In this document: piece after piece, positions 2,421-36,702 of the stretch | How the letters are laid out: each line of letters starts with the position of its first letter | How positions within the stretch are numbered: the stretch's first letter is position 1 | NCBI GenBank assembly: GCA_951406725.2 | Contig: OX597836.1 | Span: forward strand, 22,444,001 to 22,508,000 | Reading direction: 5' to 3' | DNA: 64,000 nt | From: Octopus vulgaris | Taxonomy: Eukaryota | Notes under the pieces: model-generated | The model's database searches: none | Seen by the model: the letters and a program-made list of their open reading frames with translations, nothing else | Told to the model about the DNA's origin: nothing | Position numbers and translations under genes: made by a program

Positions 2421-3502
2421 CACCACAAGGCATCTCACCTCCGTCCTTTAAGAGGTCCATCAATCCATACCCTAGATTTACCTTTATTAATATATATCGA
2501 ATTATACATAGGTATATACAAGATTTACACAGATATAAGAGTTAGATTCTGGGATCTGCCCATGGATCTTTCTCTTTGGAAATTTTTGCCTGCCACACTA
2601 AAAAGTTTCTCCACCCATGTTTTAGACGGAAACAAGAAGAAGCCCGTCATGTCTGTGTGTCTTTGCATTTCTCCCACACCACCACTTGACAACTGGTGCT
2701 GGTGTGTTTACATCCCCCATAACTTAGCAGTTCAGCAAAAGAGACTGATAGAATAAGTACCAGGCTTAAAACGAAGAAAAAAAAAAGCACTGGGGTTGAT
2801 TTGCTCAACTAAATATTTGTCAAGGTGTTAAGATGCCCCAGCATGGCCACAGTCGTTAGACATGACTGAAACAAGGATGAAAGATAAAGCCTTTAATGTG
2901 GTGCTCCAGTATGGGCAATCCAGTGACTGAAAGAGATGATAAAAGATGATCATAGCTAGAACATCTCGGATCCAACAAGTCAAACAACACCCTTACCGCC
3001 CTTGCAGCTAACTCGTGATACGGGGGTGGGGAGTAGACAGGAACTAAACAACAACAACAGGTGTTTTATTTTTAGCCCAAAATTCACCTGACTTTTTCAT
3101 TGTGGCTTTATTCTTTGTTTTTCTATTTTATTTTATTTTCCTTTGAAGAAAACCTGTTGTCAACATGTAAGGGAGTGTGGATGGGTGGGTGTATGTGTTG
3201 TTTATAAAACAACCGGCCAACAACCTTGCTAACCAACCAGCAAACCAGATACACCAAATTTGAATTTTCTCTAGTAAACCAATCGTCTACATCAGGCCTG
3301 GGGCAACACTGTGACGATGTGCTCGCATGACTTTCTGAATGACACAACAATGGAAAATTACCTTCAATGTTTTTTGCATAATATGACATACCTGATGATG
3401 CACCATGTGTTACAAGTGACCCACTTATCAAAAAAGATTGCCCATGCCCAGTCTACTAGATCTGCTAGAAATAGCAACTAAATCACTTTCAAATCACCTC
3501 TC

Positions 3503-35489: not shown

Positions 35490-36075
35490 AGGTGCAGGCG
35501 TGGTTATGTAGCAAGAAGCCTGCATCCAAACCATATGGGTTCCGGGTTCAGTTCCACAGCGTGGAACCTTAGGCAAAGTGTCTTCAACTATAGCTTCGGG
35601 CCGACCAAAGCCTTGTGAATGGATTCGATAGACAGAGACTGAAAGAAGCCCACAGCGTGTGTGTGTTTTCCCCACCACCGCTTGACAACCAGTGTTGGTG
35701 CGTTTACGTCCTCGTAACTTAGCGGTTCGGCAACATATATTGCTTTACTACCCACAAGGGGCTAAACACAGAGGGGACAAACAAGGACAGACAAACGGAT
35801 TAAGTCGATTAGATCGACCCCAGTGCCTAATTGGTACTTAATTTATCGACCCCGAAAGGATGAAAGGCAAAGTCGACCTCGGCGGAATTTGAACTCAGAA
35901 CGTAACGGCAGACGAAATACGTCTACGCATTTCGCCCGGCGTGCTAATGTTTCTGCCAGCTCGCCGCATAGACCGATAGAATAGGTACCAGGCTTAAAAA
36001 AACAAGAACTGGGATCGATACATTCGACTAAAAATTCAAGGCAGTGTCCCAGTATGGCCGTAGTTTGATGACTTT
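35490..36075 (+). mobile_element. Family A SINE with nested family B SINE (35737-35968, minus)
   Basis: Family A head and tail interrupted by a full reverse family B copy. Confidence 0.85.
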
Positions 36076-36117
36076 CTTCTATAAAAGATCTACATGTTTA
36101 CTTATACACACACACAC

Positions 36118-36227
36118 GTCCCCAAAGTCCATCCACTCCTCGCCGTGGGGGGGACGCTGGCAAGGGGTAATGTCAGAGCTATGCCGTCGGGAACTTCGGT
36201 TCCTAGTAGGGCCACCCAAGGCGGATT
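36118..36227 (+). ncRNA. HDV-like self-cleaving ribozyme fold
   Basis: P1 gtcccc/ggggac, P2 agtccatc/ggcggatt, P3 cac/gtg, L3 tcctcgcc, P4 tggc/gcca containing gggaac-TTCG-gttcct, J4/2 cccaa. Confidence 0.65.
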
Positions 36228-36471
36228 GGTCTGACACCGAGTGGTATTAGGTATTCTGGTGAAAATCCTCGGAGTGTCTGCTTCGGCAACCAACGGCTCC
36301 TCGGTCGTTCTGTCCCTGCGTCGGCGGAAAATCTGCGGCAAACAGGATGTCTCTACATGCAGGATTGTTGGGGACCGCTTGTGAAATCCACATATTCCCA
36401 CGGAACTTCTTCCAAGGAAGAAGCCGACTCAACCCGCCCAGGGTGAATGTCGCCACAAGTAAGTAAGTAAG
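36118..36471 (+). mobile_element. Short non-autonomous RTE-like retroelement (5'UTR-like head plus (AAGT)n tail)
   Basis: Inserted in a (CA)n tract (tacacacacac duplicated); GC-rich structured head; aagtaagtaagtaag tail. Confidence 0.65.
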
Positions 36472-36702
36472 TACACACACACATTGCAAATGTAGACTGA
36501 CACCATTATTTTAGAAAGAGTTATTCCTAGAAACAGAATAATGTTCTTCGATGCATTTAAACAATCTAATATTTCGTAGACATATCTTGGACAGTTTTTA
36601 ATGATTAAACTTGCTTGAGCCTCACACTAATAAGTAATGTCTGCACAGATATGGCAGTATGATGAGTATTTATTTACTTTCGAGGTGTGTGTGTGTGTGC
36701 AT

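What the first reader, a model, noticed from the sequence alone, without database searches (positions are those of the whole stretch)
36118..36471. HDV-like ribozyme defining the exact 5' end of a 354-bp non-autonomous retroelement
Seen: nested double-pseudoknot elements in the correct order: P1 gtcccc(36118-23)/ggggac(36150-55), P2 agtccatc(36126-33)/ggcggatt(36220-27, one A-C), P3 cac/gtg around L3 TCCTCGCC, P4 tggc/gcca enclosing a cUUCGg tetraloop hairpin, and J4/2 cccAA. The predicted G1 (36118) is the first base after the duplicated (CA)n target, and the element ends in (AAGT)n. Known: RTE and R2 retrotransposons use 5' HDV-like ribozymes to free their RNA from read-through transcripts. 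Inference: a promoter-less, ribozyme-headed SINE-like family. This copy has a 6-bp P1 and a weak P1.1, so it may be impaired.
Basis: partly seen in the sequence, partly recalled or inferred. Interest (0 to 1): 0.7.

Follow-up and report, generated by a model that had tools for sequence, protein, structure and literature searches.

The report
Broken ribozyme-headed mini RTE retrotransposon
This is one of roughly a thousand short copies made of the two ends of an RTE jumping gene of the same genome; the family starts at a predicted self-cutting RNA fold, but this copy has lost the catalytic strand, and such losses cluster at one edge of the fold, likely where the copying enzyme stalls.

Summary
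The stretch is a real retroelement (36117-36471, 12-bp target duplication): the first ~300 and last ~55 bases of a 3.0-3.4-kb RTE LINE whose full-length, broken copies lie in the same genome. The fold kept by four RTE families of this genome is ~165 nt long: 7-nt L3 with U20/G25, P1.1 CA/UG, a large P4, J4/2 GCNRA. It matches Rfam RF02682 in register but below threshold. The window copy lacks G1 and has J4/2 and the P2 3' strand deleted, so it is predicted dead. Cleavage is untested, and three sister families start with a pyrimidine, not G. Deletions pile up at the ribozyme's 3' edge (9 of 15 events), a possible reverse-transcriptase stall footprint. Known kind (bipartite RTE, R2 SIDE, NARTc); this scan noted it before in other genomes.

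The parts
36105..36116 (+). 5' target-site duplication (12 bp, in a CA run)
36117..36471 (+). Whole element: internally deleted (bipartite) RTE copy, 355 bp
   Evidence: blastn to full-length copy L091: head 3-310 at 88.6%, tail 3342-3398 at 93.0%
36117..36123 (+). P1 5' strand without the family's G1 (family GCGTCCCC)
36129..36136 (+). Predicted P2 5' strand (CCA, then CCCC in the family; A36135 is this copy's own change)
36137..36149 (+). Predicted P3 (two C-G pairs plus U.U in the family) and 7-nt L3 36140-36146 with U20 and G25 (G36145) equivalents
36150..36159 (+). P1 3' strand (36150-36157) and predicted P1.1 3' strand UG (36158-36159)
36164..36237 (+). Large P4 insert: base helix 5' strand, 8-bp inner helix, 5-bp helix CCGTC/GGCGG, cUUCGg hairpin, 3-bp triloop hairpin; the RTE 5' domain that also appears in insect and vertebrate RTEs
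   Evidence: L361; Kojima 2018 supplement part 6, read by eye
36252..36255 (+). Lesion: four bases stand where the family has 23 (P4 3' strand, J4/2 with the catalytic C, P2 3' GGGG); net loss 19 nt
36256..36414 (+). Rest of the RTE 5' region, with a candidate start codon at 36347 that is in frame with the endonuclease in L091
36406..36423 (+). Head-tail junction: 7-bp inverted repeat with a 4-nt loop; this junction type in 9 of 58 loci, the window's included
   Evidence: counted by eye
36417..36446 (+). Last nine codons and stop of the RTE ORF (EEADSTRPG*)
36447..36471 (+). Short 3' UTR and (AAGT)n tail
36472..36483 (+). 3' target-site duplication

Best explanation
[quoted passage not shown] Shown: shared head and tail with full-length APE+RT elements, target duplications, 5' ends at G1, the lesion. 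Inferred: read-through transcription, cleavage, copying by RTE protein in trans (target-primed reverse transcription), and amplification of at least five short masters. Inferred with less support: the lesion arose when the reverse transcriptase met the 3' strand of P2, the first paired part of the folded ribozyme on its way, stalled and jumped.
For: Partner: L091, L092 and L096 carry the head, an APE+RT ORF with stops and frameshifts, and the tail (RVT_1 E 2e-16). Duplications of 8 bp or more in 32 of 48 copies against 87 of 2256 mismatched pairs. Five junction types are each shared by 4-15 of 58 loci. Fold: majority states of families A-D keep L3 UCA..GY, P1.1 CA/UG, P3 CC/GG and J4/2 GCAGA/GCCAA/GCUAA/GCUAA; the catalytic C is kept in 50 of 51, 22 of 23, 19 of 21 and 22 of 24 copies. 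P1, the P4 base and P2 change on both sides between families (P2 CCCC/GGGG in A-C, CCGU/ACGG in D). D lies far from A-C in the protein tree. cmscan puts A and D heads on RF02682 in this same register (12.3 and 21.7 bits). My descriptor hits 19 of 59 A, 9 of 24 B, 6 of 24 C and 8 of 24 D loci, but not the window copy; 3 of 3000 shuffles, 0 in 264 kb of flank, one chance site in the window. Hotspot: 9 of 15 deletions of 3 nt or more fall in bases 135-160, about 11% of the exposed bases (P about 5e-6, window chosen after the fact); one insert there repeats 9 nt of its own 5' flank (L425).
Against: No cleavage or RNA 5'-end data. All Rfam scores are far below the gathering score of 44. Families B, C and D begin with C or T, so the purine at +1 that HDV ribozymes need (PMC1874588, passage) is met only in family A (12 of 59 A loci have G1 and 7 of 7 P1 pairs, 0 of 72 B-D loci). 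P3 has two standard pairs, P1 can be read as 8 bp, and P2 is split 4+3 by an internal loop. P2, P3 and P1.1 never vary among A-C, so they give no covariation there (pairs changed on both sides 4, shuffles 217 of 500 as high). The descriptor was fitted to these families. The base before G1 is T in 27 of 44 copies, so the RNA might start one base earlier. Short-read contigs did not list the hotspot deletions. Short direct repeats (GGC, GGGC) flank several deletions, which DNA repair could also use.
Confidence: 0.75

Rival explanations
1. The head is a folded but non-cleaving leader (or a decayed ribozyme): the 5' end is set by an internal RNA polymerase II promoter, and the fold serves translation, stability or binding of the RTE protein.
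For: B, C and D start with pyrimidines; weak P3; T enriched before G1; L1Tc has promoter and ribozyme in the same 77 nt (PMC3383444, search listing only).
Against: The catalytic set (U20, G25, P1.1, C in GCNRA) is kept across families only 36-39% alike in endonuclease sequence, which a promoter would not require; family A ends exactly at the G that opens P1.
Confidence: 0.17
2. The first reader's compact 110-nt ribozyme (G1 36118, P2 ending 36227, J4/2 cccAA) is the working fold.
For: It can be drawn on this copy; its P1 core is real; 83.3% of cells pair.
Against: It needs A36135 and G36142, which the family lacks; P3 middle pair unpaired in 17 of 17, two P4 pairs broken or gapped in 11 of 17; its P2 3' strand GGCGG pairs with CCGTC in a helix that changes on both sides in L361 and in RTEs of lamprey, locust, coelacanth and platypus; family D lacks that strand.
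Confidence: 0.04
3. The lesion hotspot is made after insertion by DNA repair between short direct repeats, or by assembly error, and says nothing about RNA folding.
For: GGC/GGGC repeats at several breakpoints; no support from short-read contigs.
Against: Right-hand breakpoints cluster at bases 154-159 while left-hand ones spread over 135-154; similar breakpoints recur in different junction types; one insert copies the site's own flank; lesions also occur in full-length A, B and C copies found by protein search (L091, L098, L101, L109).
Confidence: 0.3

Closest known systems
Bipartite ORF-absent non-autonomous RTE LINEs (WALLSI3, RTESINE2, Bov-A unit; Kojima 2018, PMC5786205, passages and supplement part 6 of 15 read)
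   Same: 5' end and 3' end of an RTE joined by internal deletion, no small-RNA head, microsatellite tail, target duplications; the same P4 domain is visible in RTE-7_PM, RTE-3_Crp, RTE-60_LMi, RTE-14_Lch and BovB_Plat of that supplement.
   Different: Here the partner and several independent junctions are in one genome; the passages read cite predicted RTE ribozymes but give no fold for this domain.
R2 SIDEs and R2/R1 SIDEs of Drosophila (Eickbush and Eickbush 2012, PMC3414825, abstract and passages read)
   Same: Ribozyme head plus 3' end of the parent; not polymerase III SINEs; mobilised in trans.
   Different: SIDE cleavage was shown; SIDEs sit in rDNA; this family is dispersed, uses an APE-type parent and carries its insert in P4 rather than J1/2.
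HDV-like ribozyme RF02682 (F. prausnitzii type) and RTE ribozymes of Ruminski et al. 2011 (paper not held; known only through Kojima 2018 and recall)
   Same: Order P1, P2, P3, 7-nt L3, P1.1, GCAA linker, C-G base of P4, GCUAA-type J4/2.
   Different: Scores 12-22 bits against a cut-off of 44; P1.1 is CA/UG; P3 has a U.U; P4 holds about 90 extra bases in A-C; B-D lack G1.
Perere-3 (RTE) of Schistosoma mansoni with 5' twister variants (PMC8501958, passages read)
   Same: RTE whose 5' end is set by a ribozyme next to the target duplication.
   Different: Other ribozyme class; no twister match here.

Membership tests
Bipartite non-autonomous RTE LINE | 5' part identical in origin to the 5' end of an RTE | tested here: met
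   head matches L091, L092, L096 at 85-89%
Bipartite non-autonomous RTE LINE | 3' part from the extreme 3' end of the same RTE, with microsatellite tail | tested here: met
   tail 95% to the same copies; ORF end EEADSTRPG*
Bipartite non-autonomous RTE LINE | Parent has one APE+RT ORF of the RTE clade | tested here: met
   RVT_1; relatives of about 1030 aa with PF03372+PF00078; tree. The clade name rests on recalled motifs and size, no RTE reference was in the tree.
Bipartite non-autonomous RTE LINE | Short form itself retrotransposed (shared junctions, own duplications) | tested here: met
   five junction types shared by 4-15 of 58 loci; duplications in 32 of 48
SINE (small-RNA head, polymerase III) | tRNA, 5S or 7SL head with A and B boxes | tested here: not met
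   head is RTE-derived from base 1; no tRNA or Rfam small-RNA match. The box regex found none but also missed the neighbouring SINE's B box, so it adds nothing.
HDV-like ribozyme (family A, intact copies) | Nested double pseudoknot P1, P2, P3, P1.1, P4 | tested here: met
   96.2% of cells paired; slid controls 32-51%; descriptor; two-sided changes in P1, P4 and, through D, P2. P3 has only two standard pairs.
HDV-like ribozyme (family A, intact copies) | U20 and G25 in L3; catalytic C in J4/2 (CNRA) | tested here: met
   G25 in 53 of 56, C in 50 of 51
HDV-like ribozyme (family A, intact copies) | Purine +1 opening a 6-7-bp P1 at the element's first base | tested here: met
   G in 39 of 44; G1-C, 7-8 bp
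HDV-like ribozyme (families B, C, D) | Purine +1 opening P1 | tested here: not met
   start with C or T; 0 of 72 loci with G1 and a full P1
HDV-like ribozyme (window copy) | G1, J4/2 and P2 3' strand present | tested here: not met
   G1 absent, 23 nt replaced by 4; no descriptor hit
HDV-like ribozyme | Rfam gathering score | tested here: not met
   RF02682 12.3-21.7 bits against 44; the stretch scanned for L008 is itself a lesioned copy
HDV-like ribozyme | Mg2+-dependent self-cleavage | not testable with these tools
   needs a bench assay; no raw RNA reads were offered

The most novel reading that the evidence does not exclude
RTE reverse transcriptase copies a folded ribozyme and stalls at its first helix: about one copy in five carries a fresh lesion at the P2 3' strand and these copies are dead ends, so the genome holds an in vivo footprint of the fold and a knockout series showing that it is needed. 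The widespread RTE 5' domain is this ribozyme's P4, and families B-D are HDV-like ribozymes that cut in front of a pyrimidine.
Probability: 0.25. Interest if true: 0.6.

Novelty: new member of a known kind. Interest (0 to 1): 0.36.

Why it matters
The kind is known, so the element alone matters little: it adds an HDV-like ribozyme candidate in an animal group for which my searches found none in print (the key 2011 paper could not be read). Two points would matter more if true. First, RTE 5' ends are being engineered for gene writing (PMC13708176, passages); a fold that explains the conserved 5' domain, and a stall site where about a fifth of copies are damaged, say what to keep and what to relax. 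Second, B-D would test whether HDV-like ribozymes really need a purine at +1.

Tried and rejected
Rfam at E up to 10 gave only microsatellite-driven microRNA hits and RF02682 below threshold; no twister, pistol, hatchet or hammerhead match; I also compared those classes by eye from recall and dropped them. Viral contigs: 0 and 19 pattern hits, the 19 unrelated by eye, and no protein relative. Phage collection: no match. GTDB contigs gave 15 RT loci, of which only L361 showed the P4 domain pattern. Sequencing runs: no RNA holder listed, contigs only, so expression and RNA 5' ends could not be read; contigs did not list the hotspot deletions. MAFFT misplaced family D's 3' half and one gap in B/C, so D was left out of the pair counts, the outer P1 pairs were not counted and C is penalised at the P4 base. 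RNAalifold cannot draw pseudoknots and recovered only the P4 domain. The first copy set was enriched for lesioned copies by the query and was not used for rates. An antisense reading (the head resembles the reverse complement of a motif in family F) was noted and not tested. Family E, with intact ORFs, showed no such head in the 8 loci read. Ruminski 2011, Webb 2011 and Passalacqua 2017 are not held; their figures and supplements may already show this register.

Full report
1. Observation. The sequence is as quoted. It is a dispersed repeat in a 2.8-Gb genome with about 30 large contigs; that size fits an octopus, which is my inference and was not tested. An exact 20-mer of the family occurs 438 times and first looks gave 1206-1296 candidates; copies are a median 94.4% alike to one reference copy. 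I estimate about a thousand copies. The target duplication is 12 bp (36105-36116, 36472-36483), so the element is 36117-36471.

2. The 5' end. Contigs of three public runs under three organism labels leave the element at the same G. The window copy starts at the family's second base.

3. The partner. Walking upstream from longer variants gave three 3.0-3.4-kb copies with the same head and tail around an endonuclease and reverse transcriptase ORF, all broken by stops or frameshifts. The window's last 55 bases are the end of that ORF, a short UTR and the (AAGT)n tail. Among 58 loci, five head-tail junction types hold 9 (the window's type), 15, 4, 11 and 9 copies; 7 are single, 1 is full length, 2 had no anchor (counted by eye). 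With duplications in 32 of 48 copies against 87 of 2256 mismatched pairs, the short forms were themselves copied. This is the bipartite RTE of Kojima 2018 (PMC5786205; passages).

4. P3 cac/gtg needs A36135 (C in 53 of 54 copies) and the L3 G is A in 50 of 54. The strand used as P2 3' pairs instead with CCGTC inside a domain that also heads an RTE on a metagenome contig (L361) and several RTEs in Kojima's supplement, where that helix changes on both sides (part 6 of 15 read by eye).

5. The fold that does hold. Protein searches found three more RTE families with related heads: B (76-84% in the endonuclease), C (61-63%) and D (36-39%). D sits far from A-C in the tree (38 rows, 5 under half filled). 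All four keep: P1 (GCGTCCC/GGGACGC in A, CTACCCT/AGGGTGG in B, C-run/G-run in C and D); P3 CC/GG with a U.U; a 7-nt L3 with U first and G sixth; P1.1 CA/UG; a P4 whose base pair C-G is constant and whose next pairs covary; J4/2 GCAGA, GCCAA, GCUAA, GCUAA; and P2, CCCC/GGGG in A-C and CCGU/ACGG in D, extended by CCA/UGG. cmscan aligns A and D heads to RF02682 in this register, at 12.3 and 21.7 bits against a cut-off of 44. The corrected model pairs 96.2% of cells, slid controls 32-51%; only 4 pairs change on both sides and 217 of 500 shuffles reach that, because P2, P3 and P1.1 do not vary among A-C. My descriptor, fitted to these families, hits 19 of 59 A loci (two duplicates included), 9 of 24 B, 6 of 24 C, 8 of 24 D, 3 of 3000 shuffles, none in 264 kb of flank and one T-rich chance site in the window. 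Defining features were taken from PMC4908430 (part 1 of 4: cleavage at the first base of a 6-7-bp P1), PMC13635239 (part 1 of 8 and passages: C75, G25), PMC1874588 (passages: G1) and PMC3774820 (passages, sections 15 and 18).

6. Against. Only family A has G1; B, C and D start with C or T. P3 is weak. No RNA ends could be read. An internal promoter is not excluded. I put self-cleavage of intact family A heads at about 0.75.

7. This copy. Bases 137-159 of the family are replaced by four (36252-36255), which removes the P4 3' strand, J4/2 and the P2 3' GGGG. With G1 gone too, it is predicted inactive.

8. The lesion is not unique. In 56 copies chosen by anchors outside this zone, 9 of 15 deletions of 3 nt or more fall in bases 135-160, about 11% of the exposed bases (P about 5e-6; zone chosen after the fact, exposure approximate); two more copies have replacements there, one repeating 9 nt of its own 5' flank. 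Across all A copies held, 34 of 78 were flagged, 3 of them wrongly (point changes); the other 31 show 29 different strings, with similar breakpoints in different junction types (this pool is enriched by my first query). Right-hand ends cluster at 154-159, the edge of P2's 3' strand, which a reverse transcriptase meets first. I read this as stalling and template jumping, with lesioned copies not amplified further. It is inference: short direct repeats allow DNA repair as a cause, and short-read contigs did not list these deletions. One search for such a report found none (passages of its single hit, PMC12222951, were not on this point).

9. Known and new. Ribozyme-headed internally deleted LINEs are known (R2 SIDEs, PMC3414825, abstract and passages; NARTc, search listings; review PMC6765202, passages), and RTE ribozymes were predicted in 2011 (not held; cited through Kojima). 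Searches showed no description of this family's ribozyme; a repeat annotation of the common octopus has no 'ribozyme' or 'bipartite' in its main text (PMC13282606). The scan's own notes hold the same kind in other genomes (49 findings) and one in this genome; no look-alike of this sequence. I reached the partner, the register and the junction helix before reading them. Interest 0.36.

Noticed in passing
window 36406-36423; families A and B: The head-tail junction types seen keep CTTCTTC from the head and GAAGAAG from the tail, which would pair the two ends of the full-length RNA; family C seems to have a different complementary pair. No covariation test.
   Followed up: partly
L343-L355 (family F): Another RTE family has a different head, and behind it a motif that resembles the reverse complement of the A-D core; the same motif lies upstream of the C head in L109.
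   Followed up: no
L161, L164, L165, L167, L171, L109: Family C heads cut at the same base behind one shared upstream sequence, a chimeric subfamily that has replaced P1 5' and P2 5'.
   Followed up: no
L017, L030, L135/L144, L136, L153, L404, L417, L432, L440: Tandem or partial repeats of the first 10-190 bases in front of the element, and a short inverted copy in L026; joints 1686-to-1502 in public contigs show head dimers too.
   Followed up: no
L361:1385-1570: An RTE contig inside a bacterial metagenome bin (likely host contamination) fits the same fold by eye: P3 ACU/AGU, L3 UUAACGU, P2 GGCAUC/GAUGCC.
   Followed up: partly
L094: Full-length A copy whose 5' third is inverted relative to the rest.
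   Followed up: no
window 35500-36065: Pieces of abundant SINE-like repeats, on both strands, just upstream of the element; the label tRNA-derived is recalled, not tested.
   Followed up: no
L199-L206 (family E): A young RTE-like family with many open frames of about 1060 aa and no such head in the loci read.
   Followed up: no
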